Notes under the pieces: model-generated
The model's database searches: none
Told to the model about the DNA's origin: nothing
Seen by the model: only the letters and a program-made list of their open reading frames with translations
Origin: Lytechinus variegatus
Taxonomy: Eukaryota
DNA: 64,000 nt
Assembly (NCBI RefSeq): GCF_018143015.1
Contig: NC_054751.1
Span: 28,513,438-28,577,437 of the forward strand
Direction of reading: 5' to 3'
Position numbers and translations under genes: made by a program
Part shown: piece by piece, positions 13,240 through 57,194 of the stretch
How the letters are laid out: each line of letters starts with the position of its first letter
Position numbering within the stretch: position 1 is the stretch's first letter

Positions 13240-13332
13240 AAAATCAATTCCAAAAATGCTTTTGGGCTCCACCTGATTGACTACATGGCAGAGCTTCTGA
13301 AATCAAAGAAAGGAGAGATGACAAACTTTCAG
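13240..13332 (+). CDS. NCAPH: NCAPH exon 3 ([31 protein letters not shown])
   Basis: Acceptor ttcgtag| and donor |gtcagt. Strong match to human [27 protein letters not shown]. Confidence 0.9.
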
Positions 13333-26309: not shown

Positions 26310-26514
26310 ATATGGGCAATTCCATAAAATAATCAACCTTTTTGTACGTCCGACCCCATTTTTCTCAAGTTGAACTTCACTTCATAAACTAACCAAGTCA
26401 CGGTTGTTTGAGAGCATTACAGACTGTCAAAAGAACAAAAATCAGAGACAGAAATTTCATGAAGGTCCCACATATAGGGGGTCCGACTTACATAATTTAT
26501 GGAATTGCCCATAT
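26310..26514. mobile_element. 205-bp MITE (TIR ATATGGGCAATTCCATAAA...TTATGGAATTGCCCATAT) in intron 8
   Basis: Perfect 18-bp TIRs. Confidence 0.6.
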
Positions 26515-27314
26515 GCATCATATCTACAAAATATTTGAACACACATATAGTTAAGAAGTTGACTTTGCTTGCTTTCCATAGTTGTGATTGATCAAATCAA
26601 TCACAACTCTTTTGACGGGCCCCAGGCCCCAGTAGCTATTGATTGTAGCACTCATTTCTGCAGTTACATTGGTTATTGTGTATGATTGATCAGAAAAACC
26701 ATCCCAAAAATCAACTACAAAGCTTTGTGTTTAGGGGGCCAAGGTTTACTATATCTGACATATATGTAACAGAATTATAAAATTATAATAGTACCATTCT
26801 TAATAGACGCATTACACCTACAGGTCTCTCTGCACGAGGAAAGCAGAAAAAATGGTTTGGATTGTATACTTGAAAATTAAACATTAGATACATGTATACA
26901 TTATAAACATCAACAAATATTAAAACATAGATTAAGCCTAACTTAGTTAAACATTCTGAAAGAGGTAGGTTTATAATTATTCTGCGAGTTGCTCAAGCTG
27001 GGTAATATTTTGTAAGGTCGGTGGGAGAGAATTCCATTGTGCTGGTGCACTTTTCTGGAAAGCCCGATCCCTATAGCAGACCATTTTGAAGGAGTCGGGT
27101 TTAGTGATTATGATGATGATGAATGAAGGAGGGGAGCCGCTCCCGGGGATGGACAGAAGACATACAATATGAGTATTTTAGGACAAATGAGGCACATTTA
27201 CATAAAAAATGCTCCCAAAATACAGAGGGCGCCAAAATAACCAAGTCCAAGTAGAGGTCACTCAATACAGCATTCAAGACCATGACCTAGACTTCTGATA
27301 AAATGTGCCATTAA

Positions 27315-28048
27315 CCCTATCTAGGCCGGGGGGGGCCTCGGAGGCCCCCCCCTCAACGAATCGCGCGATAATTTCGCCGTGCGAAATTTTTTGACCGCGG
27401 CGCTCGCTGACTTTTTACTTTCAAGTCTTGCGCAACTTTTGAGACCAACTTTGCGTCACCCGGGTATGTGGTTCCAAAATTACGCAACATTATATAAGTG
27501 CATGTCGGACCAAAAATTGCTCAAAAACGTGATTTCGTGTACAAAGTCAATGCAAATTGTGTTTTAAACCAAAATTCATAAATGTATGATCATTTTTAGT
27601 TTTGTTGGTCTAAATGTATTTATTTTATGCTTTTTATGATCACAGAAGAGTCCCCAACAAATTTCATTGAAAAAACAATGAAAAACAAAAGGTCAAAAAA
27701 CAAAGAAATACATAAGAAATTGCAAAAAACAATATAATACATAAGAAAATGATTTGATATCGCAATTTTTTCATCTACACTTGCTAAAAACACCACAAAG
27801 AGTTTGTATACCAAAAATTAGTACATTTGGAGCTTTATTCAGGGAGTTAGAGGTAAAAGTATGATTTCGCATACTAATTACGCATAAATTAGCATAATCA
27901 CTTAATAGCAATTCGCATGAAATAAATTGCTATACAATCTTGTAGATTATGTCCCAGGCAAACCGCGTGCCAATTTTCGGCGCGGTCGACGGCCTAGGAG
28001 GCCCCCCCCGGCATTATGAACTCCCAAAATACCCCGGCCTAGATAGGG
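27315..28048. mobile_element. piggyBac-like non-autonomous element (MITE), 734 bp, with TIRs CCCTATCTAGGCCGG...CCGGCCTAGATAGGG and flanking TTAA at both ends
   Basis: Perfect 15-bp or longer TIRs beginning CCCT. TTAA at 27311-27314 and 28049-28052 is the piggyBac target duplication. No transposase ORF. Lies in NCAPH intron 8. Confidence 0.7.
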
Positions 28049-30493: not shown

Positions 30494-30577
30494 GTGAGAA
30501 AACCTTCATTTATAATAATAATGATAACCCTAGGTATATTTACCTAGAGTAGCCACTTCAGTTTTGAAAACTGTTCT

Positions 30578-30800
30578 ACCAGCGGGCCCTGCTATTATTA
30601 TTACCCCGGCTTTAGCTGAGCTGCTTAGGCGCTCAAGCATTCAAGGAATTTCTTCCTACCGGGTACCCATTCACCTCACCTGGTTGAGTGCAGCACAATG
30701 TGGTTGAGTTTCTTGCTGAAGGAAATTACGCCATGGCTGAGATTCGAATCCACGACCCTCTGTTTCAAAGTCACACGACTATTCCACTTGGTTATAATGC
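30578..30800 (-). mobile_element. SINE copy (same family) in intron 12, with tail ...gcgcctaagcagctcagctaaagccggggtaataataatagcagggcc
   Basis: Reverse complement matches 13809-14025 across the head and body. Confidence 0.6.
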
Positions 30801-32931: not shown

Positions 32932-33117
32932 GGTGGTGATGATGATGACGACGACGACAGCAGCCACGCCCCTGGGAGCATGACCTATGACCTGAGCTCC
33001 ATGGGGGGTTGTGACATGAGTCAGGGATCAGCTGGTAGCCATAGCGGTTTCTTCAATAACAGTGTCTTTGATGCCACGATGCTTCAGGGAGACAAGCTGG
33101 TTGCACAACCCCACAAG
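32932..33117 (+). CDS. NCAPH: NCAPH exon 14 (GGDDDDDDDSSHAPGSMTYDLSSMGGCDMSQGSAGSHSGFFNNSVFDATMLQGDKLVAQPHK)
   Basis: Acceptor tgtttatcag| and donor AAG|gtatgc. Matches human DSDDEDLDDLFVGPVG...NLVAEPQKV. Confidence 0.85.
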
Positions 33118-33700
33118 GTATGCATCTGTCTACTAGTACTACAAGGGGAGGGGGGGTGTGATCTAAATCAGGAATCAGCTGGTAGCCATAGTGTTTCTTC
33201 AATAACAGTGTCTTTGATGCCACGATGCTTCAGGGAGATAAGCTGGTTGCACAATCCCACAAGTTATGCATCAGTCTACTAAGACTACTGGGGAAGGGGG
33301 TGACCTAAATCAGGGATCAGCTGGTAGCCATAGCGGTTTCTTCAATAACAGTGTCTTTGATGCCACGATACTACACAGAGACAGGCTGGTTGCTCAACCC
33401 CACAAGGTATACATCTGTCTACTAATACAACAGGGGAAGGGGGGGTTGTGACCTAAATCAGGGATCAACTGGTAGCCATAGTGGTTTCTTCAATAACTGT
33501 GTCTTTGATGCCACGATACTACACCGAGACAGGCTGGTTGCTCAACCCCACAAGGTATACATCTGTTTACTAATACAACAGGGGAAGGGGGGGTGTGACC
33601 TAAATCAGGGATCAGCTGGTAGCCATATTGGTTTCTTCAATAACTGTCTTTTATGCCACGTTGCTTTAGGGAGACAGGCTGGTTGCTCAACCTCCCAAGG
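33003..33700 (+). repeat. NCAPH: Tandem array (about 5 x 140 bp) formed by duplications of the 3' part of exon 14 plus its donor and the first about 50 nt of intron 14
   Basis: Units start at about 33003 (genuine exon part), 33146, 33284, 33425 and 33561. Units 3 and 4 keep the reading frame GS(A/T)GSHSGFFNN(S/C)VFDATILHRDRLVAQPHK and AAG|GTATAC donors. ORF 33266..33451 reflects this. Confidence 0.8.
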
Positions 33701-34184
33701 TAGGTATTAGGGGGGAGGGGTTATGCATGGCTTCACGCACAACTGGAACATATTCTTACGTGCCAAGCCAGCTACATAGGGATATGTCACACAGCAAAAG
33801 AAATGGTCACCATTTATGCGCAAAGTCATTCTTATCTTGCGTACTGCTTCATGAAACGCCCCCCTGAGGTTTCTTCTGCAGAGACCAAGTGGACCGGTAA
33901 AGTTAAGATATCAATCAGAAAGTCAGTGTCGCCGAAGACTGAAAATGATCTAAATTCCCTTCTTTACATTAAAGCGTTCACAAGATAATCAAATTTTATA
34001 AATTTTTATATTGTTTATGGGTTGGATTAAAACTGGTGGTCTCATTCTGTCTTTCCTTGCATATGACTCATATGTATGAGACTTTAAATGAATTTCCATG
34101 TACAAACTTGCACTGTAGAACAATTCATCTTTTAATATCGCACTCAAAGCATGTCAGGGGATTTTTGAAAATTTGTACAAATCT

Positions 34185-37100
34185 GTGAACACTGCAGTGT
34201 TGTAGTGCCTTGATGCTCGGCCTTGGCCTTAAGGCGCCTTAAGGCCTATTTTTTCAAAGCCTTGGCCTTGAACATTCAAGCCTTGGCCTTGAGAGGGCCT
34301 TGGCCTTGAGGATTTTGAGCCTTGAAATTTCAAGGCATTTTCAAGGCTTTTTCAAGGCATTTTGTATTTTGTACTTTCATTTGTTTTATACAAGTAATTA
34401 TAAATGTTTCAATTGTTCTGTACATTTAATGACACTAAATACTACCAGTCAGCAGAAGCAGTAAGTGTACTTAGCAGTGCCATCAATTGCAATTATCATC
34501 ACATAATTATGTAACAAAGAGAAGTGATGAAAATTAATATTATTTATTGGTAATATGATGTAATCATGACTAATAAGGATAATGACAATATCAATAATAA
34601 TGATAATAATTATGATTAGGATTATAGTCAGTGGCGTAACTACAGGGGGGGAATGGGGGCACGTGCCCCCCCCCCATCGGCTGACTAAAAAAAAGGAGGA
34701 AAAGAGGGAGAAAGGAAGAGAAATGTAGTGGGAAAGAAGACATTTATGTTCATTATAATATGTTATAATTATGTTATGTTACATTACATAAGAAACACTT
34801 CTTTCATATAAATGAAACTTGCTCAGGGCATATGTCTTCATTGTTCCTGGTGCTCCCATTGTCTGTTTACCGAGATATATAATCCTGTTATACTAAAACC
34901 TCCCGTTTTCAAGTCAATAATAATAATAATAATAGAGGATACTTATTAAGCGCATAATAACTGGTCAAGTTCTCTATGCGCTTACCACCAAACATATATA
35001 CACCAAACTACCAAATATATTTGCTCGCACTTCGAGTTATTCTTTTACATGTACAATAGTATGCTTCTTTTTCATGAATACTTTAAGTGATTGTCCCATT
35101 TTAAGGTCTTAATATAAAACATTTCCTGTCCGTGCTTACGTTCGCAGTAGTGGATTTCTGAAAGATGTCTGCTCTCCATCAATTCCTAGAATGAGTCCTT
35201 AAAATGTCCCTTTTTCTGTTTTCTGATCTGAATATCAAAAATTTTCAGCTCGCGCTTTGCGCTCGCATCATTTGGTTAGTTAACTACGTAATGTCTTCTT
35301 GAATTCCTACAAACAAGCCTTAAAATGCCCCTCTTCAGATCTGAATTTCCTAAATTTTCAGCTCGCGCTTCGCGCTCGCAAGGTTTGATTAGTGAGATGG
35401 GTATGTTAATCATGATTACAAGCGCTTAATGTGCATGTTTAGATGTAATTCTAACAAAATCAGCAAGCGCTTATTGGCACTCCCATTAGATGACTACGGT
35501 GAGATGTGTATAATCTTAATAGATAAAAGATTCCTAAAATATAGTCCTTAAAATCTTCCTGTTTGGGGTCAATATTTACAAAAATTTCAGTTTGCGCTTC
35601 GCGCTCTTATTATTTAGCGAGACGGGTACGTATCATGATAACAAAAGATTGATTGTAATGTCCCTTTTTAGGTTTGAATATCAAAAATTTTAAGCTCGCG
35701 CTTCGCGTTCGCATTATTTGACAAGTGAGATACATGTCCGTTTATTGGCACTGTCCTTATAAAAATATCTCTATTAGGTCAGTATACCTGGCAACTGGGC
35801 GCGCTTCGCGCGCTCATAGGCAATTCCAAGTTTTTGCTGGTGCCCCCCAATGCCGTGACCCACGGTACGCCACTGATTATAGTGATTTTATGACAGGAAT
35901 AATTCTGACAGATTTGACTGCAATTTTGACAACAATTTTCATACCTTAAAAATAGCTTACTCTAAAGAATGATAACAAGGTTGATTTCTATTCCATTAGG
36001 TTTTCCTTGTATTATTTTCTTTAACCAACAAGAATGTTTAAGTCTTAATGATATTCTGAAAAGATTCGGTAAACTTAAACACAAACTTCAATTTCGTCAT
36101 TTCCAAATGGGCTATGGCATCAATGGCATGATGAGCCCAACAATTTTGAGGGGCCAAGCATGGCATACAGAGCAAAATTTTAGGTTTCAAAATCAACAAA
36201 TTTTGGATTGTGCTTGCATAAATTATTGTTAAGTAAGGTTCGCATTCAATTTACAAAAAAAATGCTTAGAATGTCTAGTTTTAAGGTCGGAATATTACAA
36301 ATTTTTAAGCTCGCGCTTCACGTTCGTATTATTTGACAAGTGAGATACATGTCCGTTTATTGGCACTGTCCTTATAAAAATATCTCTATTAGGTCAGTAT
36401 ACCTGGCAACTGGGCGCGCTTCGCGCGCTCATAGGCAATTCCAAGTTTTTGCTGGTGCCCCCCAATGCCGTGACCCACGGTACGCCACTGATTATAGTGA
36501 TTTTATGACAGGAATAATTCTGACAGATTTGACTGCAATTTTGACAACAATTTTCATACCTTAAAAATAGCTTACTCTAAAGAATGATAACAAGGTTGAT
36601 TTCTATTCCATTAGGTTTTCCTTGTATTATTTTCTTTGACCAACAAGAATGTTTAAGTCTTAATGATATTCTGAAAAGATTCGGTAAACTTAAACACAAA
36701 CTTCAATTTCGTCATTTCCAAATGGGCTATGGCATCAATGGCATGATGAGCCCAACAATTTTGAGGGGCCAAGCATGGCATACAGAGCAAAATTTTAGGT
36801 TTCAAAATCAACAAATTTTGGATTGTGCTTGCATAAATTATTGTTAAGTAAGGTTCGCATTCAATTTACAAAAAAAAATGCTTAGAATGTCTAGTTTTAA
36901 GGTCGGAATATTACAAATTTTTGAGCTCGCGCTTTGCGCTCGCATTATTTGATTGGTGAGTTATGTATCCTATTTATGAGTCACTAAATGCAGTCCAGAA
37001 CAGCCTCCTTTTCTGGTCAGTAAAAATTTCAGCTTGTGTTTTGTGCTCGCGTTAATTTGTTCAGTAAGATGCACACCTTTTTCATGATTACAAAAACAGC

Positions 37101-42864: not shown

Positions 42865-44223
42865 CTATGCCCAGGGGAGGGGACTTGCAGAGATATTTGC
42901 ATCAGCTCGGGCCTTATTCCGGGCTGCTACCTTGTCAGTTCTTTCTTTGGCAACTTTTTGAGCCCTCTCAACCAACTCGGCTTGTTCTTTAACAAAGTCT
43001 TGTTCCCATTCTACATCAGACACACCCAACAAATGATCTAAAGGAATACGCTCTTTCCTACCAAACATAAGAGCAAAAGGGCTGACCCTCGTAGTTTCGT
43101 GGGGGGTGGTATTATACATGTAGACAAGATGAGGCAATAATTCAGGCCATCTACGTCTATCACGCTGATCCAGCGATTTGATTAGGCCAAATAAAGTCCT
43201 ATTGAATCTTTCAGCCTGAGCATTACCCTCAGGATGATATGGTGTTGTACGAGTCTTACGTATACCATAAAGCCTACATAATTCTTTTATCACCTGACCC
43301 TCAAAATTACGTCCCTGATCACTATGAATTCTATTTGGAATTCCATACTTTGTGAACCAGTGCTCTTGTAGAGCTTTAGCTACTGTTGAGGCGTGTTGAT
43401 TTCTACAAGGGATTGCCTGAGCTAATTTCGTATATACATCTGTAATAACAAGTACATCCTCAAATCCTCCCTTACCAGGATCTAACTTAACAAAATCAAT
43501 AGCAATAATTTCCAATGGACTAAATGCCATTAGATGTCTCATTGGGGTTCTTACCCGAGGCTGCATCTCCTTTGCCTTAGCACATTTAATACATCTTTTA
43601 ACATAAAATTTTATATCACGAGCCATGCCAGGCCAATAAACTCTTGACCTAGCTAATTGTTGAGTTTTATTTCTACCTTGATGTCCCCATTCATCATGAC
43701 ATCCAACTAAAATACTCTTACGCAAACACTGTGGGAGTAAAATTTGAAATATATTACCAAATAAAGGATCAAGAACCTTCCTTCCTAATATTCCATCTTT
43801 AACAGTAAAATTAGACCATTGATATAACCATTGTTTCAAACTATCCGGTTCTGAAAAATGTGCGGGAAATTCATCCCCCGGTTTCCAGTGCGCACTCCAC
43901 CGTTCCCACACAAATCTCAGTTCTGGGTCCATTTTCTGCATTTGAATGAATTGTTCAGGTGAAAAGGAAGGAAACAAATTAGAAAAAGTGGGACCTAACA
44001 AATTTTCTTGGTCAGAAACACCAGACTTCGATTGGATTTCATAAAAGGCTTGCTGCAAAGATTGCACAGTTTGTTTCTTTCCAAAATATTTTTGAAGTAG
44101 TTCAATAATACTTTTAGTATCCAATGTCCCCGAAAAACATCTAACTTCTTTACGTGCTGCACCTTCCAAATTTGCTCTGATTATGCCGCACTTTTGGAGT
44201 TTCAGAGATTTGATATTGTTCAC
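42865..44223 (-). CDS. Retrotransposon polyprotein remnant. A gag-like N-terminal part is fused to an integrase with an HHCC zinc finger (CHDEWGH...CIKC) and a DDE catalytic core (AIDFV...HSDQGRNF...PEGNAQAER).
   Basis: 452-aa ORF. The HHCC and D,D(35)E spacing is typical of Ty3/Gypsy and retroviral integrases. No RT or RNase H motifs (YXDD) anywhere in the internal region. Confidence 0.85.
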   Translation of the reverse strand: MNNIKSLKLQKCGIIRANLEGAARKEVRCFSGTLDTKSIIELLQKYFGKKQTVQSLQQAFYEIQSKSGVSDQENLLGPTFSNLFPSFSPEQFIQMQKMDPELRFVWERWSAHWKPGDEFPAHFSEPDSLKQWLYQWSNFTVKDGILGRKVLDPLFGNIFQILLPQCLRKSILVGCHDEWGHQGRNKTQQLARSRVYWPGMARDIKFYVKRCIKCAKAKEMQPRVRTPMRHLMAFSPLEIIAIDFVKLDPGKGGFEDVLVITDVYTKLAQAIPCRNQHASTVAKALQEHWFTKYGIPNRIHSDQGRNFEGQVIKELCRLYGIRKTRTTPYHPEGNAQAERFNRTLFGLIKSLDQRDRRRWPELLPHLVYMYNTTPHETTRVSPFALMFGRKERIPLDHLLGVSDVEWEQDFVKEQAELVERAQKVAKERTDKVAARNKARADANISASPLPWA

Positions 44224-44380
44224 AATAAAGATCTATTTCTTCTAACCATTCGGTAAGGGAAATGCCACCTTGTCCAGAAAATCTCTCAAGTCTGGTACTT
44301 CTATCACTAGGGGTAAACCTACACCTTTGTAATGCTCCGGTTAAACCGGTTACTAAATCTTCAACTAACTTTTCAGCCAT
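44150..44380 (-). CDS. gag-like N-terminal ORF of the LTR element (MAEKLVEDLVTGL...). It overlaps and frameshifts into the integrase ORF.
   Basis: Lies just downstream of the PBS on the minus strand and overlaps the start of the 452-aa ORF. The gag assignment is by position only. Confidence 0.4.
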   Translation of the reverse strand: MAEKLVEDLVTGLTGALQRCRFTPSDRSTRLERFSGQGGISLTEWLEEIDLYCEQYQISETPKVRHNQSKFGRCST

Positions 44381-49631: not shown

Positions 49632-49790
49632 GAGAATGTCTGCAATGAGGCCGATGCGGACAGTGTTGCTGGAACCCAATCGTTTTGTGACATGTATACT
49701 ACCCTCCCTGACAAGCTTAGCAAAACAATGTCGAAGAACCTCAGTATTCCCATTGCGTTTGTGTGTCTTCTTCATCTCTGCAATGAAAAG
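49632..49790 (+). CDS. NCAPH: NCAPH exon 16 ([53 protein letters not shown])
   Basis: Acceptor tgtctctag| and donor |gtatgt. Matches human [21 protein letters not shown]. Confidence 0.9.
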
Positions 49791-49837
49791 GTATGTAGCA
49801 GCTTGATAGGTAATGATCACTTCGTGAAAATGATAAA

Positions 49838-50311
49838 GACCAACAATATCTTTTCTCTCTTTCCATTCTTATGTCCAGAGTCTAAGATTGTCCGTACAGG
49901 CCAATATACTGAATAATAAATGTCTGTAGAGGTCGATGTGATAAATAATAATAAAGATCGAGAATATAACTTTCTCCCTTCTCTCTTTCTATTCTTATTC
50001 CCAGAGACTAGGCAGGTGTTTCTTAAAGCCCTTCGTAAAGTAAAGCATGACTGAAACATGTTCTTAGTTAAGTCAGCTACATAGGGATAAACCATTTAAC
50101 ACAAGAAATGGTCACCAGGCGTATGTTGTCATTAGTTAACCTTTGTGAAATACCTGTCAGGATTATCTGTGCAAGCTGATGTAATAAAAATTGATGAAGA
50201 CCAACAACATGACTTGGCCCCTTCTCTCTTTCTTTCCATTGTTATTTCCAGAGTCTGAGATTGTCTGTCCAGGCCGATAGCTTTGAGGATCTTCTTATCA
50301 CTCAGGATTAA
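49838..50311 (+). repeat. NCAPH: Triplication of the terminal-exon region. Each unit has a polypyrimidine tract, a CCAG|AG acceptor and an exon-like start AG.CT.AG...
   Basis: Candidate acceptors at 49877/49878, 50003/50004 and 50250/50251. Copy 1 would encode SLRLSVQANILNNKCL*, copy 2 RLGRCFLKPFVK*, and copy 3 SLRLSVQADSFEDLLITQD*, which matches the orthologue. Confidence 0.7.
50252..50311 (+). CDS. NCAPH: NCAPH terminal exon 17 (SLRLSVQADSFEDLLITQD*)
   Basis: Acceptor gttatttccag|. Matches the human C-terminus NLKLEGTEDLSDVLVRQGD*. This is the third of three tandem exon-like copies and the one that best matches the orthologue. Stop codon TAA at 50309-50311. Confidence 0.75.
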   Translation, partial: SLRLSVQADSFEDLLITQD

Positions 50312-50469
50312 AAGCCAGCCACGTCAGCCTTTCAACAGTATTTCAGATCCAGTCAAATGAAATAGACCAGGGAGTGTTTCACATAGATTTAAAAGCTTCA
50401 CAACCAACAAGATATTATGACTTGACCAGTTTTTTAAAAGGAGAGTGAAACACGTAACCTTATATAGCC

Positions 50470-51125
50470 CAGGATATTTTGAAATTGCATAGCCCGGGGG
50501 TGGGGGGCAAAAACAGCCCCCCCCCCAGATATTGGCTTTGATCGTGGAATCGCAACGAAAATTGGCACGCACGTCACCCATGATGTAATCTCTGCCATTT
50601 GATTGTCAATTGTACCAAAATTATTCAAAGTTATTTTTGATTAATTGATTATGCCAATTAAAGCAAAAAGTCATAATTTGTTTGTTAATCTTTAAATATT
50701 CCTTCCATCCGCTAGAATTTAGTCTGAACACTTTTTAGGATTATTATCAAATGTATATTAGAAAATGGCAATATAAAAAAAAAATTTCTGTGTGTTTTAG
50801 ACTTTATGTTTTTCATTGTTTTTGCAGTGGAAATCGGCAACTTTATTTCAGTCATAAATAACATGAAATCTTTTGCTTTTAATCAGTAAAAGTAAAAAAA
50901 ATGATGCTTTTATAAATTTTTTACATACAGAATTTGAACTGGATTTGTACATGAATTACGTTTTTGAGCAATTTGGGTCTGACGTGCACTTACAAAACAA
51001 AAGAAAATAGTCATGAAATGTCATGGCGCGATCTTTTTGCATTACAAATTTGTTTTGATAAATATAAAGGGGGCTGTTTTTGCCCTCCCCCTGGCTGGAT
51101 AGGGTTAAAGCTAGTGAATTGTACA
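50470..51125. repeat. Foldback-type inverted repeat pair (gggggcaaaaacagcccccccc ... ggggctgtttttgccctcccc), about 600 bp apart, immediately downstream of the NCAPH stop
   Basis: Inverted segments at 50495-50530 and 51060-51100. Confidence 0.45.
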
Positions 51126-52540: not shown

Positions 52541-53939
52541 TGAGTGTTTAATGAAGCTTTGCATAAGTTAGGAGTAACTTTATGAACAACTGGTGACCAT
52601 TTTCTTGTTGTAAATGGCATACACCAAATTTTTGCAAGTGTTGATATAGTTCATAAGAAAGGGTCACCAGTTCTACAGTCTTTATGAAGCACCCACGGGG
52701 GGGGGGGGGAGTTTCGAAAAGATATAAGTATGTCTTAGAATCGCACTGAAACGCCGACGCATACATGATATGCATGTCATGTCTTTTCTACTGCATGCAA
52801 CTAGACATTTAAGGGCGACTCTAGGTCATACTTAAATCTTTTTTAACACCCCCCTTCCCAGATCTTGTAAGTTTTCGGAAACTGTTATTACTTACAATGG
52901 ATTAGCCCTATCCATCTTGCCGATGTGCAGGTCAAAATTCAAAAATAGATTGGAAATACATTGGAATGCCAGTCAATATCTAAAATATGTATATTGTAAA
53001 AATCCATTTATTTAACAGTATTTGAGAGAAATTGACTTATTTCCATACTTATTGTTTTATATATTTTTACTTATGGTGTATATAAGCTAGAATATTGTGC
53101 CTTGTCATTTTTATATTGTAAATTATGTATTGCTTACCAGTAATGTGGCTCTAGATGGCTCTTTCATGAAAATTAGGGGGGGGGGTCCTAGCAATAAACA
53201 AATCTTCAGGGTCATCAAATTTAGATTTTAAAAAATATATATAAAGGGGGCGGGAGATGGATCGGGAACTTGATTTAATATGAATGAATATATCCAATCG
53301 CAAACAGTCTCAAATTCCGGACTGTATTTTAAGAAATATCTTGTTTAAAAGTACTTCCAAACTTTTGTTCTCTAACCAAGATTTTTACACCCTAATAAAG
53401 TTAAAAACAAAAACAATTTGATAAACAAGCTCGGGTATCACATGATTTGTTGGTAAATGTAAATTATTTCACATCAGTGCTAATTTTGCCATTTCAGTGA
53501 CAAATTCTTTGCCTGTTAATGCCATGATTTATGAACAATCCTTAAGAAAAACAACTGAGTAACAATATTCAGTAAACCTCAATTTGATTTTTTTTTGGGG
53601 GAGGCAAAAGACAAATTAGAGAACTTGGTGTACACCACTGTATAATGAAAGTTATAAGTACTTTGTAAAGATAAGAATTATGTTTTTCAGGAATTTAGAA
53701 TTTTGATTTTCAGCCCAATTTTCATGCTACATGTGGATATGGAATACATAGAATTGTACTGACCTCTGATTCTCTATATGAAATAAAATGTAAATAATAT
53801 AGCATCAATTGATCGATTCTTGTTTTTATTTCAAATTGCCTTCGTTTTTCTTTTTACTCTTATTATGCGATATATTTCTATTTGAGGACTAGTCAGTGAT
53901 TTGAAAGTCTGAATATTACCACTTTTTGAAAGCTTCTTA

Positions 53940-54590
53940 GAAGATATATTTTCTTCATCTCCTTTTCTCTCCATCTTCCCACCTGTCTTCATCTTCTATC
54001 CTCTCTTTCCTTCCTTTATCTTCTATCCTCCATCTTCTTTCATCTCTCTTCATCTTATTTTATCTCTTATCCTCTCTTCATCTTCCTTCATCTCTTTCTT
54101 TATCTTCTATCCTCTCCATCTTTCCATCTTTCTTCCATTTTTCTCCATCTTTTTTCCCTCTCCTCATTTTCCTTCATCTCTTTCCTTTCTTTATCTTCTA
54201 TCCTCTCTTCATTTTCCTTCATCTCTTTCCTTTCTTTATCTTCTATCCTCTCTTCATTTTCCTTCATCTATTCCCTTTCTTTACCTTTTGTCCCTTCATC
54301 TCTTTCCTTTATTTTCAATCCTTTCTTTATCTTCCATTCTCTCTTCATCTCTTTCCTCTCTTTATCTCATCTCTTTTCTTTCTATATCTTTTTTCCTCTC
54401 CATCTTCCTTCATCTCTTTTCTCTATCTCTCATCCTCTTTCTCCCCTCTTTCCGTCTCTCTCTTCATCCTCTATTCTCCTTCCCTTCCTTCTACTTTTTA
54501 TCTTCCTTTGTTTCTTCCTTTCTTCATCTTTCCAACTCTTCCTCTCCTCTCTCCCTCTATCTCTTCTTGTTTTCATCTTCTCTGCCCCCC
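53940..54590. repeat. Pyrimidine-rich (CT) satellite, about 45-50-bp units (ccttcatctctttcctttctttatcttctatcctctcttcatttt)
   Basis: Repeated units read directly. Gives the low-complexity ORF 54288..54629. Confidence 0.75.
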
Positions 54591-57194
54591 AGTGCTCATT
54601 TCAACAATAGACACAAACAAACAAATTGAGGTAGAGACAATGGCATGGTGTTTTACAAGTGTCTGTGTTTAAAAGTGAGAGATCTTCCTGAATATCTTCC
54701 CTCCATCAAAATATATGAGATACTAAACCTAGCTAAAAGAAACCCTACAATCAGAGCAATTTAAATCCTCTTTGCATTTCTATAAACCTAAGAATCAGCA
54801 AGTTTTGTTTGAAAATGGACAATATAAAAATGGTTCCATTTTGAATTGCATGATGATAAAGAGAATGGAAAAAACTAGTGTTGAAATAAATTATGTTTAA
54901 AAGCATGGTCATTGGCATATATTTGGCAAGGAAATACCCAGAATAGTATTACAGAATAACAATCTAATGAATTAATTGAATACTCCTTGTATGCTAGATA
55001 ATTACTACATAAGAGGACATAACAAAAAAGAGCATCTCATTTCTTAGAAAAAAATGGAGCATGAAGTTAAAATGTTTGCTGAAATGTTCATTATAAATAT
55101 TTCATACATGAAATTAAGACGTTAGAGTTCATAATCTTTTTTCTCCCTTCTTTTCTTTCTCCCTCTCTTTCTCTGTACTTGACATAATATGGAAATCAAA
55201 TGTCATTTATATGAATTCATAGTACAATTTGGTTTCATTTTGGATTTCTAAAATTCACATTAAATAATTATTAACATGATCTAATACTCTAAATCAAATC
55301 ATTAAAATGGTTATCATGATTTTTCTCAACATTATAACATCAGTGGCGGCTCTCGTTAATTAACCCTCGTTTTCGTGAAAAAAGGCAATGCACATATATT
55401 CGTAATATACACAATACACAAAGTGCAAACAATTAACCATAAAACTGGAAATCAATGCACACAAATATACATATCAGAATGTCAGGGAGATGTTGATGAA
55501 AATATGCATGATAATCAATTCAACCCTTTAACACATGTGGTATCTTTTTGAAGGGCGATTACAGATATAATTCAATTCAATGAAGGCATTAGTATGAAAT
55601 ATCCACTCAAAGTACATTTGAAAGGGTGTAAGTATTGTCAAAGTCACAAAGATGAAACCAACTCCAGATCAAATTCATATTTATTATTTCCAATGACATG
55701 TGGTCAGTTTCATTGCTATGATTGTACATGTAGCAAATCCAAGGCAGAACCGAGATTGTTTGGACTAGTCCTTCAAAAGATAATGAGTGTGGGTCACTTT
55801 ACTGGGACCAGTTTCATAGAGCTGGTTATTACAAATAATGCACAGCTTAACAGAAGACTGGTACCATTACTTGTCTTGACGGAGATTCCCTGAAATCAGC
55901 CATTATGACTAATGTGGGAGTACATGTCCCTGTAACCGTAATCAAACTCTGACTATATTGAATTTCACCTATGGATGACCGATCAACATGAGAATTTTAA
56001 TCTGCAAAGTTTTGATCTTGACTGGAGCTAATGAGAACTGATCTAGCACCAAAGAAAGGGTCACAAGTCGGGCATTAAGTTGTGAGAAGCATAGAAACAG
56101 CTTTATGAAACCTGCCCCAACGCCCTAACAAATAAGGTGAATACATGTTTGTTTAATACAGTGACGGCAAAGTTTCTTGATAAATCAATCTCATTACAGA
56201 TTTACTTCATGTTTCCCTACGTAAATAGATTTTTTTGTAATTTTCATTTTACTTCTTAGGGATGATAATTGATGATTGTATTGTTTGCAACAAAGTGCAT
56301 CACAATTTGACCAGTACGCAAACCATTACAATATTTTGTGATTTCTACAAAAAGACGATACATTACATCATAAAGCTATGTGAAAATAACTGGAGTCTAT
56401 TGAACACTTCGATCACAATTACACTAATTCAATATGAATGTAAGTTAATTTCACAGAAAACACAAACGGAAATATGAGCTTCAATTCCAAAGAGCACCCA
56501 CTCAGACATTCTGACCATAAAATTCAATAAAGTAATGTTGAGTGTTCTTCATACATAGTTAAGAACTAGGACAAAATGTTCATGCAGTAGGCATCCTTTT
56601 TTCCTTTAAATATCAAATGCAAAAATTGTGGATGTAGCAGATAAGTCTCAATATACTTAATTTCCACATATTTCATTCCAGCTTCAAGTTTAAGAAGGTT
56701 GAAATTTTCAGAACTTGAAAGGCATGAGAATTGTGATAATTCTTAAAACTAACCAGTGTGTTATATATTTGTATTAGTATTACTTGAGATGAATAAGGGA
56801 TTTTTAAAATATCTTTTTATTTCCATTTTTTTTTAGTGAGATCCTCAAAAGAGGTACAGCTCAAACATGATCTAAAATGAGAGCAAAAGTATCCTGATCT
56901 ACATAAGTGTCACAGAAGTGACTTTTCTCCCCAAACATATTCACCTTGGTAAAATATATTCCAGCTCTAAAGTGGATCAACAGTTATCCAGTATTACTGT
57001 TAACAATAATGGTGCATATCAAATAAATATTGCACTCAAATATCACAAGTGATTGGGTGCTTGCCTGACACTTCTTAACCAGAAAGGCAACATTACACTT
57101 AGATGACAGGGAAAGGTGTCATTACTTTGAGCAACCATTGTTGAGAGCTCTTACAAGACAAATCACTTTGGGACCACATAATTCAGGACCCCGT

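What the first reader, a model, noticed from the sequence alone, without database searches (positions are those of the whole stretch)
49838..50311. Triplicated terminal exon region with three competing acceptors
Three tandem units each carry a pyrimidine tract plus a CCAG|AG acceptor. The first, 88 bp after the exon 16 donor, would give C-terminus SLRLSVQANILNNKCL*. The second would give RLGRCFLKPFVK*. Only the third gives the orthologue-like SLRLSVQADSFEDLLITQD*. The proximal copies are either decoys, alternative last exons, or evidence of recent duplication.
Basis: seen in the sequence. Interest (0 to 1): 0.55.

Follow-up and report, generated by a model that had tools for sequence, protein, structure and literature searches.

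The report
Repeated splice acceptors, sea-urchin condensin gene
The last intron of the green sea urchin's condensin subunit 2 gene holds an old, decaying tandem repeat that copied the intron's 3' end, leaving three strong-looking splice acceptors, but only the last gives the conserved protein end and is the one in the reference gene models, so this is a real but fairly ordinary array of pseudo-splice sites.

Summary
The window is Lytechinus variegatus. All 17 coding exons of RefSeq XP_041477580.1 (condensin complex subunit 2, NCAPH/Cnd2) match exactly. Exon 16 is 49632-49790 and exon 17 starts at 50252.

Only acceptor 3 encodes the conserved winged-helix "wing" (invariant D, I and Q from sponge to echinoderm). 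Both RefSeq isoforms use it.

The array is neither recent nor an artefact. L. pictus has orthologues of all three units (about 90% identity, the same as a neighbouring repeat fragment) plus three more, so six acceptors in all. A strongylocentrotid-like relative and 13 other animal loci have one.

The upstream pseudo-exons are not conserved as coding sequence. Unit 1 lacks the branch-point-like ATATRAC motif that the other units carry. Unit 2 looks fully competent on sequence.

Best reading: a splice-site-spanning minisatellite whose upstream acceptors are mostly silent pseudo-sites. It is the 3' counterpart of the human F7 IVS7 donor array. The same gene also has a donor-side array at exon 14.

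I could not reach any RNA data, so low-level use of the upstream acceptors is not excluded.

The parts
49632..49790 (+). Coding exon 16 of the condensin complex subunit 2 (NCAPH/Cnd2) gene. It encodes ENVCNEAD...IAFVCLLHLCNEK, which forms helices of the C-terminal winged-helix domain.
   Evidence: Exact match to residues 658-710 of XP_041477580.1. Pfam PF05786 Cnd2, E 2.4e-15. AF2 model helices H53-63, H66-71 and H74-88.
49791..49796 (+). Authentic 5' splice site of the last intron (AAG|GTATGT, phase 0).
   Evidence: Sequence. Donor matrix score 4.99, percentile 99.1. The intron position is the same in all 36 related loci.
49791..49921 (+). Unit 1. An 88-nt intron-like part (pyrimidine tract 49849-49876, AG 49877-49878) is followed by a pseudo-exon from 49879, whose reading frame runs on past the unit end to the TAG stop at 49927-49929. 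It lacks the ATATRAC branch-point-like motif of the other units.
   Evidence: Acceptor score 6.62. There is a 12-nt gap at the motif in both Lv u1 and its L. pictus orthologue. Branch-point scan. Orthologue in L. pictus at 26355-26482, 89.8% and 82.5% identity.
49915..49955 (+). Two AATAAA hexamers (49915, 49950) just downstream of acceptor 1. They could serve as poly(A) signals for a short alternative terminal exon.
   Evidence: Hexamer scan. This is a consensus match only, and no 3'-end data were available.
49922..50044 (+). Unit 2. Head GTCTGTAGAGGTCGATG, an A-rich segment, a TATAAC branch-point-like motif (A at 49969), a pyrimidine tract, AG at 50003-50004, then a 12-codon pseudo-exon RLGRCFLKPFVK* (50005-50043).
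   Evidence: Acceptor score 8.14, rank 9 of 3436. Branch-point scan. Orthologue in L. pictus at 27518-27645, 90.7% and 90.0% identity, with all three codon differences non-synonymous.
50045..50125 (+). Fragment of a dispersed repeat inserted between units 2 and 3. It is also present at window 33737-33825 and at the same place in L. pictus.
   Evidence: blastn 76% over 76 nt, E 3.5e-10. Alignment. L. pictus orthologue 89.6% identical.
50164..50251 (+). Unit 3, the intron part leading into the authentic acceptor. It has a CATGAC branch-point-like motif (A at 50212), a pyrimidine tract, AG at 50250-50251 and a 50-nt AG-free zone.
   Evidence: Acceptor score 6.54. L. pictus orthologue 90.1% identical.
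50252..50311 (+). Coding exon 17 (SLRLSVQADSFEDLLITQD plus TAA stop). It encodes both beta-strands of the wing of the C-terminal winged-helix domain.
   Evidence: Exact match to residues 711-729 of XP_041477580.1. Invariant L, D, I and Q in the animal alignment. End-to-end alignment with Brn1 C-terminal domains in 6QJ4 and 6QJ2; in yeast Brn1 (6YVU, 7Q2X) the alignment stops two residues short of the end. AF2 strands E91-94 and E102-105.
50307..50662 (+). Candidate poly(A) hexamers for the authentic terminal exon: ATTAAA at 50307 (overlapping the stop) and at 50657. There is no AATAAA between 50312 and 52500.
   Evidence: Hexamer scan. These are consensus matches only.
33003..33702 (+). Second splice-site-spanning array in the same gene. 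It has a 148-bp period and 4.8 copies, each made of the last ~100 nt of exon 14, the donor and ~45 nt of intron. Donor copies lie at 33118 (annotated), 33264 (TT, dead), 33407, 33555 and 33700.
   Evidence: tblastn, TRF, sequence, and the annotated exon end.

Best explanation
The region is a degenerate, intronic, minisatellite-like tandem array in the last intron of the Lytechinus variegatus condensin subunit 2 (NCAPH/Cnd2) gene.

Origin. It arose when a segment of about 90-130 bp spanning the intron-16/exon-17 boundary was duplicated head to tail. That segment carried the branch-point region, the pyrimidine tract, CAG|AG and the first ~28 nt of exon 17. A dispersed-repeat fragment later landed between units 2 and 3. 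In such an array only the last copy is contiguous with the rest of exon 17, so only acceptor 3 (50251/50252) yields the complete winged-helix wing.

Age. The array was already present in the common ancestor of L. variegatus and L. pictus. Its copy number has since changed (3 versus 6).

How it most likely works (inferred). The upstream acceptors are pseudo-sites that are not used, or only rarely used.
- Unit 1 is handicapped because it has lost the branch-point-like motif and sits only 88 nt from the donor.
- Unit 2 is competent on sequence. It is bypassed because the terminal exon is defined from its downstream end (exon-17 sequence and the poly(A) site) to the nearest acceptor.
- This is the same 'exon-proximal site wins' outcome that was shown experimentally for the donor copies of the human F7 IVS7 minisatellite. 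It is also the outcome annotated for the exon-14 donor array in this same gene.

Shown: the anatomy, the homology of the units, the orthology of the C-terminus, cross-species presence, the lack of coding conservation in the pseudo-exons, and use of acceptor 3 in the reference models. Inferred: silence of acceptors 1 and 2, and the exon-definition mechanism.
For: - The units are homologous and local only.
- The window encodes XP_041477580.1 exactly, with exon 17 at 50252.
- The 90%-identity cluster of that protein holds only RefSeq isoforms X1 and X2. They differ near exon 1/2 and share the acceptor-3 C-terminus.
- The L. pictus RefSeq protein (four accessions) has the same C-terminus.
- The L. 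pictus last intron has six acceptor units, and the last one is the annotated acceptor.
- Orthologous identity is 89.8-90.7% for the unit intron parts, 90.0% for the u2 pseudo-exon and 82.5% for the u1 pseudo-exon. The neighbouring repeat fragment is 89.6%. Exons 16 and 17 are 94.3% and 93.3%.
- Exon 17 differences are 4 of 4 synonymous. u2 pseudo-exon differences are 3 of 3 non-synonymous. The u1 tail and stop are not conserved.
- A strongylocentrotid-like locus (L002), another echinoid (L001) and 12 more distant animal loci each have a single acceptor, with no duplicate.
- The terminal exon encodes both wing strands, with residues invariant across animals and aligned with Brn1.
- Unit 1 and its L. 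pictus orthologue lack the ATATRAC motif found 35-39 nt upstream of the AG in every other unit.
- Precedent for silent repeated pseudo-sites: the F7 IVS7 VNTR (PMC1557585).
Against: - No RNA-level data could be examined. Absence of annotated isoforms is only indirect evidence of silence.
- Acceptors 1 and 2 score as well as or better than the authentic one (6.6 and 8.1 versus 6.5 bits), and above the median of the gene's 16 real acceptors.
- Unit 2 has a good TATAAC branch-point candidate and the best pyrimidine tract.
- Two AATAAA hexamers follow acceptor 1, and the next pyrimidine tract could serve as a U-rich downstream element, so a short alternative terminal exon is physically plausible.
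- From my own recollection of classic duplicated-site experiments (Reed and Maniatis 1986; not checked here), the site proximal to the donor tends to be favoured. That would predict use of acceptor 1.
- The first 28 nt of the u1 pseudo-exon are closer to exon 17 (4 differences) than the 5' half of the u1 intron part is to the matching stretch of u3 (15 of 45 aligned positions differ). Three of those four differences are synonymous. This is not significant, but it is compatible with some constraint or with gene conversion.
Confidence: 0.7

Rival explanations
1. The upstream acceptors are really used at an appreciable level as alternative last exons, whether as functional isoforms or as tolerated noise. 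The products would be kleisin variants that keep wing strand 1 but lose strand 2 (acceptor 1), or that lose the whole wing (acceptor 2). The stop codons lie in the last exon, so these mRNAs would escape nonsense-mediated decay.
For: - Acceptor scores equal or exceed the authentic one.
- The AG-free zones are 38-50 nt, and plausible branch points exist for u2 and, less well, for u1.
- AATAAA hexamers lie at 49915 and 49950.
- The upstream pseudo-acceptors that have L. pictus orthologues (u1 and u2) keep their YAG and pyrimidine tracts in both species.
- The u1 pseudo-exon keeps SLRLSVQ in both species.
Against: - No such isoform is among the RefSeq models of either species held in the collection.
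- The alternative peptides are not conserved. u2 has 3 of 3 non-synonymous differences. The u1 tail differs, and in L. pictus it reads on into a transposon insertion without the L. variegatus stop.
- The alternative ends lack D101, I104 and Q106, which are invariant from sponge to echinoderm.
- The units evolve at the same rate as an adjacent repeat fragment.
Confidence: 0.18
2. The array has a regulatory role. The upstream units would act as decoy 3' splice sites that bind U2AF and U2, slow or tune removal of the last intron (intron retention or unproductive splicing), and so set the level of condensin I kleisin.
For: - Strong acceptor signals persist in three (L. variegatus) and six (L. pictus) units, despite 12-35% divergence between units.
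- A second splice-site array sits in the same gene.
- That decoy exons are a known class is my own recollection; I did not check it in the literature here.
Against: - Copy number is not conserved (3 versus 6).
- Orthologous divergence equals the neutral proxy.
- The array is absent from a strongylocentrotid-like relative and from the other animal loci examined.
- The RNA fold of the region is unremarkable, z = -0.06.
- There is no expression evidence.
Confidence: 0.07
3. The triplication is an assembly artefact or a private polymorphic insertion in the sequenced individual.
For: Tandem repeats are prone to mis-assembly. I saw only one assembly of L. variegatus.
Against: - An independent assembly of a different species (L. 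pictus, GCA_037042905.1) has orthologues of all three units in the same order, with the same intervening repeat fragment, at about 90% identity.
- The units differ by 12-35%, far more than allelic or collapsed-haplotype differences.
Confidence: 0.02
4. The three sites are chance matches in a pyrimidine-rich intron, or copies of a dispersed element that happens to carry an acceptor-like end.
For: CT-rich low-complexity sequence aligns easily. A true dispersed-repeat fragment does lie between units 2 and 3.
Against: - Homology extends through A-rich and exon-like parts outside the pyrimidine tract, with E values of 1e-13 to 7e-6.
- No other copy exists in 64 kb on either strand.
- The units include sequence homologous to exon 17 coding sequence.
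Confidence: 0.01

Closest known systems
Human F7 intron 7 37-bp VNTR spanning the exon 7 donor (Borensztajn et al. 2006, PMC1557585)
   Same: - A minisatellite whose units span an exon-intron boundary, so the authentic splice site is accompanied by a row of consensus-quality pseudo-sites.
- Copy number is variable.
- The site adjacent to the exon is the one used.
- The exon-14 array in this same gene (33003-33702) and the exon-16 array in locus L001 are direct donor-side counterparts.
   Different: - The flagged array is on the acceptor side (branch point, pyrimidine tract, AG), not the donor side.
- The units are longer (about 90-130 bp), much more diverged (65-88% identical) and interrupted by a repeat fragment.
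- Silence of the pseudo-sites is shown experimentally for F7. Here it is only inferred from annotation.
Tandem duplication across an intron-exon boundary creating a new intron (potato RdRp, Ma et al. 2016, PMC4974935; Rogers-type intron-gain model)
   Same: The duplicated segment crosses the intron/exon boundary. Branch site, pyrimidine tract and 3' splice site are inherited in each copy.
   Different: - In potato the upstream acceptor is used, and a new intron is spliced from a donor in the short exonic piece of the upstream copy.
- Here the reference models skip the upstream copies entirely.
- Including the pseudo-exons would give a premature stop (AAA T + AG... = TAG, read directly from the sequence).
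Alternative last exons / intronic polyadenylation
   Same: Acceptor 1 is followed by its own stop codon and by AATAAA hexamers, which is the layout of a composite alternative terminal exon.
   Different: There is no annotated isoform, no conservation of the alternative peptide or stop between congeners, and no 3'-end data.
NAGNAG and other closely spaced tandem acceptors
   Same: Several acceptors compete for one donor.
   Different: Spacing here is 126 and 247 nt, and each unit has its own branch-point region and pyrimidine tract. NAGNAG-type sites share one tract and differ by 3-18 nt. The outcome here would be a replaced C-terminus, not a single-residue indel.
Decoy (non-productive) splice sites or decoy exons that promote intron retention
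   Same: Strong splice-site-like sequences lie inside an intron and are not joined into the main mRNA.
   Different: A regulatory effect has not been shown here. Copy number and sequence evolve as if neutral.

Membership tests
Condensin complex subunit 2 gene (NCAPH / Cnd2 / Barren, kleisin gamma) | Match to Pfam PF05786 above the gathering score | tested here: met
   56.7 bits against a cut-off of 29.8, E 2.4e-15, for the last 71 residues alone, covering profile positions 704-764 of 764.
Condensin complex subunit 2 gene (NCAPH / Cnd2 / Barren, kleisin gamma) | Identity to an annotated orthologue over the full length | tested here: met
   All 17 coding exons of L. variegatus XP_041477580.1 are found as exact peptide matches in order on the + strand, 9446-50308.
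Condensin complex subunit 2 gene (NCAPH / Cnd2 / Barren, kleisin gamma) | C-terminal winged-helix domain ending in a beta-hairpin wing | tested here: met
   AF2 model with mean pLDDT 77: helices followed by strands E91-94 and E102-105, both encoded by exon 17. The C-terminus aligns with Brn1 C-terminal domains 6QJ4, 6QJ2 and 6YVU. Only acceptor 3 provides it.
Splice-site-spanning minisatellite with pseudo-splice sites (F7 IVS7 type) | Head-to-tail copies of a unit that includes an exon-intron boundary | tested here: met
   Three units, each with a pyrimidine tract, CAG|AG and an exon-17-like stretch of about 28 nt. L. pictus has six, and TRF detects a 177-bp double unit there at 85% matches. 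The window array is too degenerate for TRF.
Splice-site-spanning minisatellite with pseudo-splice sites (F7 IVS7 type) | Pseudo-sites match the splice consensus as well as the authentic site | tested here: met
   Scores of 6.6 and 8.1 against 6.5 bits for the authentic site. The gene's real acceptors have a median of 4.9. The matrix is generic, with frequencies set from memory.
Splice-site-spanning minisatellite with pseudo-splice sites (F7 IVS7 type) | Copy-number variation | tested here: met
   Three units in L. variegatus against six in L. pictus. Variation within a species was not testable.
Splice-site-spanning minisatellite with pseudo-splice sites (F7 IVS7 type) | Pseudo-sites silent in normal transcripts | tested here: inconclusive
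   Only annotation-level evidence is available. The RefSeq models of both species use the last acceptor, and no other isoform is in the 90% clusters. I found no RNA reads or spliced transcript contigs for these species.
Alternative last exons | Transcripts or annotated isoforms ending in each alternative exon | tested here: not met
   The L. variegatus cluster has two members, both with the acceptor-3 end. L. pictus has one protein under four accessions, with the same end.
Alternative last exons | Alternative exon has its own stop and poly(A) signal | tested here: met
   For u1: TAG at 49927-49929 and AATAAA at 49915 and 49950. These are consensus matches only.
Alternative last exons | Alternative coding sequence conserved in related species | tested here: not met
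   u2: 3 of 3 codon differences are non-synonymous. u1: the tail and stop are not conserved, and in L. pictus a transposon insertion follows at once.
NAGNAG / adjacent tandem acceptors | Acceptors within about 18 nt, sharing one pyrimidine tract | tested here: not met
   Spacings are 126 nt and 247 nt, and each acceptor has its own tract.
Intron gain by tandem duplication (potato RdRp type) | The exon piece of the upstream copy is retained in the mRNA and a new intron is spliced out downstream of it | tested here: not met
   The annotated protein goes straight from ..NEK to SLRLSVQADSF... Including the 43-nt u1 piece would create a TAG at the junction (sequence). The only donor-like sites after the pseudo-exons are weak: GTCTGT at 49922 and GTAAAG at 50040 score below 0, and GTGTTT at 50016 scores 1.7.
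Dispersed repeat / transposable element | Further copies elsewhere in the genome | tested here: not met
   The units have no other hit in the 64-kb window on either strand. Only the 50045-50125 spacer has one, at 33737-33825. The whole genome was not searchable.

The most novel reading that the evidence does not exclude
The acceptor array, together with the donor array at exon 14 of the same gene, could be a maintained regulatory device. The repeated decoy splice sites would titrate splicing factors on the NCAPH pre-mRNA. Depending on developmental stage, they would divert part of the transcripts to a kleisin lacking the Smc4-binding wing, or to retained-intron RNA. This would tune condensin I dosage during the rapid cleavage divisions of the sea-urchin embryo.
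Probability: 0.07. Interest if true: 0.55.

Novelty: new member of a known kind. Interest (0 to 1): 0.3.

Why it matters
The array is a natural acceptor-side counterpart of the F7 donor-site minisatellite. It sits in an essential gene, with two (L. variegatus) or five (L. pictus) consensus-quality pseudo-acceptors upstream of the real one, and a donor-side array lies in the same gene.

If RNA data confirm that only the last acceptor is used, the locus gives a compact test of how a terminal exon's 3' splice site is chosen against stronger upstream competitors (exon definition versus proximity). It also shows that gene predictors must not simply take the first good acceptor.

If the upstream sites are used, the cell makes kleisin molecules without the wing that closes the condensin ring on Smc4. 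That would need explaining.

Either way this is a modest, lineage-restricted feature, not a new kind of system.

Tried and rejected
- **Tandem Repeats Finder on the region.** It found nothing at the array, because the copies are too diverged. Homology had to be shown with sensitive blastn and pairwise alignment.
- **Looking for spliced transcripts or same-species proteins with short C-terminal queries.** The queries returned only read-through ORFs from genomic contigs, or short fragments. Only a roughly full-length concatenated query found the RefSeq proteins.
- **RNA structure that might hide acceptors 1 and 2 or bring the donor to acceptor 3.** The fold of 49771-50290 gave z = -0.06 against shuffles, so I rejected this.
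- **Purifying selection on the u1 pseudo-exon.** Three of four differences from exon 17 are synonymous, and there are 4 of 28 differences against 15 of 45 in the 5' half of the unit's intron part. This is not significant once constraint on the real exon is allowed for, and the tail is not conserved in L. pictus. I rejected it as evidence of function.
- **My first reading of the unit.** I took unit 2 to begin with a copy of the exon-16 tail plus donor (AAT|GTCTGT at 49922). I weakened this after seeing L. pictus. There the orthologous stretch is the exon-17-like part of a preceding unit (TTGTCTGTCCAGGTCGATG). The start of the intron (GTATGTAGCAGCTTGATAG), the head of u2, and exon 17 positions +11 to +28 all resemble one another. 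The register of the unit is therefore ambiguous.
- **Polarising the copy-number change** (loss in L. variegatus or gain in L. pictus). This is undecided. The extra L. pictus units form a 177-bp double repeat with 85% matches, about the same as the between-species divergence, and no closer outgroup was available.
- **Literature search for the sample accessions of L001 and L002.** It found nothing.
- **Metagenome scan.** It gave 34 more distant animal loci. These are useful only as background: every one that includes the terminal exon has a single acceptor.
Full report
**What is in the sequence**

The flagged interval lies at the 3' end of a multi-exon gene on the + strand. The penultimate coding exon ends at 49790 (...CTC TGC AAT GAA AAG|gtatgt, phase 0). 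Downstream there are three pyrimidine tracts, each ending in CCAG|AG. The AGs are at 49877-78, 50003-04 and 50250-51.

The three units are homologous rather than coincidental. Sensitive blastn of the region against the whole window gives:
- u1-u3: 76% over 92 nt, E 9e-13
- u2-u3: 72.5% over 91 nt, E 1e-10
- u1-u2: 75% over 64 nt, E 7e-6

There are no other copies anywhere in the 64 kb. Gapped pairwise alignments give 87.5%, 75.9% and 78.8% identity. Tandem Repeats Finder misses the array because it is diverged and interrupted.

The 50045-50125 stretch between units 2 and 3 is a fragment of a dispersed repeat. It also occurs at 33737-33825.

**Strength of the three acceptors**

I scored acceptors with a generic metazoan 3' splice-site matrix, with frequencies set from my own knowledge, so absolute values are only indicative. 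u1 scores 6.6, u2 8.1 and u3 6.5 bits. These are ranks 21, 9 and 22 among 3436 AGs on this strand. The gene's 16 annotated acceptors range from -0.03 to 10.7, with a median of 4.9. Two further sites this strong within 461 nt are expected by chance with P about 0.011.

Each AG is preceded by a 38-50 nt AG-free zone. Units 2 and 3 have branch-point-like motifs 35-39 nt upstream (TATAAC and CATGAC). Unit 1 has a 12-nt gap exactly there, and its best candidate (AATGAT) is 45 nt upstream and only 42 nt from the donor.

AATAAA hexamers lie at 49915 and 49950, just after acceptor 1. Beyond the authentic stop, the only hexamers before 52500 are ATTAAA at 50307, 50657 and 52081.

The RNA fold of 49771-50290 is no more stable than shuffles (z = -0.06).

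**Identity of the gene and organism**

The last 71 residues match Pfam Cnd2 (PF05786, E 2.4e-15). A full-length query assembled from the window's exons found L. variegatus XP_041477580.1 (condensin complex subunit 2-like isoform X2) as the best hit. All 17 coding exons of that protein occur as exact matches in order, from 9446 to 50308. Exon 16 is 49632-49790 and exon 17 is 50252-50308 plus the stop.

The 90%-identity cluster holds only isoforms X1 and X2. They differ by five residues near the exon 1/2 junction, and both end ...NEKSLRLSVQADSFEDLLITQD. The reference annotation therefore uses acceptor 3 only.

**What the terminal exon encodes**

In an alignment of animal NCAPH C-termini (sponge, coral, priapulid, nemertean, sea spider, lamprey, starfish), the second residue L and the D, I and Q of the ..D(L/F)xIxQ.. 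end are invariant. The acceptor-3 end aligns to the last residue with Chaetomium Brn1 C-terminal domains (6QJ4, 6QJ2) and to within two residues of the end with yeast Brn1 (6YVU, 7Q2X).

An AlphaFold model (pLDDT 77) places two strands, residues 91-94 and 102-105, after the long helix that ends in ..LHLCNEK. Exon 17 therefore encodes the whole beta-hairpin wing of the winged-helix domain. By established knowledge of kleisins, this domain binds the cap of the Smc4 head.

Acceptor 1 would keep strand 1 and replace strand 2. Acceptor 2 would replace both. Because the stops would lie in the last exon, such mRNAs should not be degraded by nonsense-mediated decay (inference).

**Comparative evidence**

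- A contig from a strongylocentrotid-like urchin (L002) has exon 16 92% identical at the protein level and a C-terminus one residue different from S. purpuratus XP_011675879. It has a 370-nt last intron with one acceptor.
- Another echinoid contig (L001) has one acceptor.
- Twelve more distant animal loci that include the terminal exon also lack any duplicate of the acceptor region.
- The intron position is the same in all 36 loci.

The decisive comparison is L. pictus (L037, GCA_037042905.1). Its last intron (26355-27859) contains six acceptor units, with AGs at 26442, 27334, 27428 (TAG), 27510, 27605 and 27859. Their scores are 8.1, 8.1, 4.0, 8.1, 8.1 and 10.5. The intron also carries an insertion of about 800 nt, with a tRNA-like end, after the first unit. 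The last acceptor is the annotated one.

L. variegatus u1, u2, the repeat fragment and u3 have clear orthologues there, in the same order. Identities are:
- Intron parts of the units: 89.8%, 90.7% and 90.1%
- u2 pseudo-exon: 90.0%
- u1 pseudo-exon: 82.5%
- Repeat fragment: 89.6%
- Exon 16: 94.3%
- Exon 17: 93.3%
- Start of the 3' UTR: 94.2%

The pseudo-units therefore evolve like neighbouring non-functional sequence. Exon 17 has four differences, all synonymous. The u2 pseudo-exon has three codon differences, all non-synonymous. The u1 pseudo-exon keeps SLRLSVQ, but its tail and stop are not conserved.

Units within a species differ by 12-35%, against about 10% between species. The array is therefore older than the species split, and its copy number has since changed. 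The extra L. pictus units form a 177-bp double repeat with 85% matches. I cannot say whether L. pictus gained units or L. variegatus lost them.

The independent assembly of a second species also rules out an assembly artefact.

**Unit structure**

Each unit carries an A-rich stretch (..ATAAAGACCRACAATATRAC..), a pyrimidine tract, CAG|AG and about 28 nt homologous to the start of exon 17.

The first ~19 nt of the intron (GTATGTAGCAGCTTGATAG), the head of unit 2 (GTCTGTAGAGGTCGATG) and exon 17 positions +11 to +28 (GTCTGTCCAGGCCGATAG) all resemble one another. In L. pictus the stretch orthologous to the u2 head is the exon-like part of the preceding unit. The array may therefore run right up to the donor, and the register of the unit is ambiguous. 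My earlier idea, that unit 2 starts with a copy of the exon-16 tail and donor, is only one possible reading.

**Mechanism**

What is shown:
- A tandem array that spans the intron-16/exon-17 boundary.
- Only the last copy is joined to the rest of the exon.
- The array is shared by two congeners, with different copy numbers.
- The pseudo-exons show no coding conservation.
- The reference models use the last acceptor.

What is inferred:
- The upstream acceptors are silent or minor.
- Unit 1 is weakened by loss of the branch-point-like motif and by its closeness to the donor.
- Unit 2 is bypassed because the terminal exon is defined from its downstream end to the nearest acceptor.

The precedent is the human F7 intron 7 minisatellite. 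There, functional donor copies do not compete with the exon-adjacent one (PMC1557585). The same gene here has such a donor array at exon 14, with a 148-bp period and 4.8 copies at 33003-33702. Intact GT copies lie at 33407, 33555 and 33700, and the annotated donor is the first, at 33118.

The potato RdRp case (PMC4974935) shows the other possible outcome of a boundary-spanning duplication: use of the upstream acceptor plus a new intron. The annotation here does not support that outcome.

**Against the favoured reading**

- I saw no RNA data.
- Acceptors 1 and 2 are as strong as, or stronger than, acceptor 3.
- Unit 2 looks fully competent.
- AATAAA signals follow acceptor 1.
- Classic duplicated-site experiments favoured donor-proximal acceptors (my recollection, not checked).

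I therefore give 0.70 to silent or near-silent pseudo-sites, 0.18 to appreciable use as non-conserved alternative last exons, 0.07 to a regulatory decoy role, and 0.03 to artefact or chance.

**Verdict**

This is a new example of a known kind of feature, a splice-site-spanning minisatellite with pseudo-sites, here on the acceptor side. Interest is modest (0.3). Public RNA-seq junction counts would settle the open point.

Noticed in passing
window 33003-33702 (exon 14 is 32932-33117): The same gene carries a donor-side array with a 148-bp period and 4.8 copies at 88% matches. Each copy is the last ~100 nt of exon 14, the donor and ~45 nt of intron. GT copies lie at 33118 (annotated), 33407, 33555 and 33700, and one dead copy (TT) lies at 33264. 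L. pictus has only about two degenerate copies without donors (L037 21353-21530).
   Followed up: partly
L001 10040-12445 (ENA ERZ26222911 contig, unidentified echinoid): In the same last intron of the orthologous gene there is a 136-bp, 17.7-copy tandem array of the last ~63 nt of exon 16, the donor and the start of the intron. At least 11 copies keep CLLHLCNEK|GT. The units contain TTAGGG-like runs. The true terminal exon follows at 13248, with a single acceptor.
   Followed up: partly
L028 1095 and 1459: A distant animal Cnd2 locus from a metagenome has two copies of the exon-16 end (CLLHLANDK|GT). This is another independent duplication at this exon-intron boundary.
   Followed up: no
L037 26483-27283: L. 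pictus has an insertion of about 800 nt directly after the first acceptor unit. It ends in a tRNA-like T-arm sequence (gggattcgaaccc), so it is probably a tRNA-derived SINE or a composite element. By eye, ORF translations in the window (for example around 27000-27180 and 30530-30700) appear to belong to the same element.
   Followed up: no
window 42868-44232 (- strand): A 455-aa open reading frame encodes a retroelement integrase (Integrase_H2C2 E 7.5e-19, rve E 5.7e-13). It lies antisense inside the ~14-kb intron between exons 14 and 15.
   Followed up: partly
window 35722-36865: Two adjacent copies of a ~615-bp segment give near-identical ORF peptides at a 615-nt offset (one pair identical, 35722-35946 and 36337-36561; the second pair, 35966-36229 and 36581-36844, differs at one residue). 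This is a very recent tandem duplication inside the long intron.
   Followed up: no
window 53913-54669: About 750 nt is open in all three + frames and encodes S/L/F/P-rich low-complexity repeats (SSLSFLYLLSS...). This is a simple-sequence tandem repeat downstream of the gene.
   Followed up: no
window ~9691 / 12117 (exon 1/2 junction): RefSeq isoforms X1 and X2 of this gene differ by five residues here (SPSDSPTERKRRSLPL versus SPSDRRRSLPL). This is the only annotated alternative splicing of the gene's coding sequence.
   Followed up: no
window 50486-50525: A G-run/C-run motif (gggggtggggggcaaaaacagcccccccccc) matches L001 16226-16264 at 85% on the opposite strand. ORF translations suggest a similar motif near window 51050-51100. 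It is probably part of a short dispersed element in echinoid genomes.
   Followed up: no
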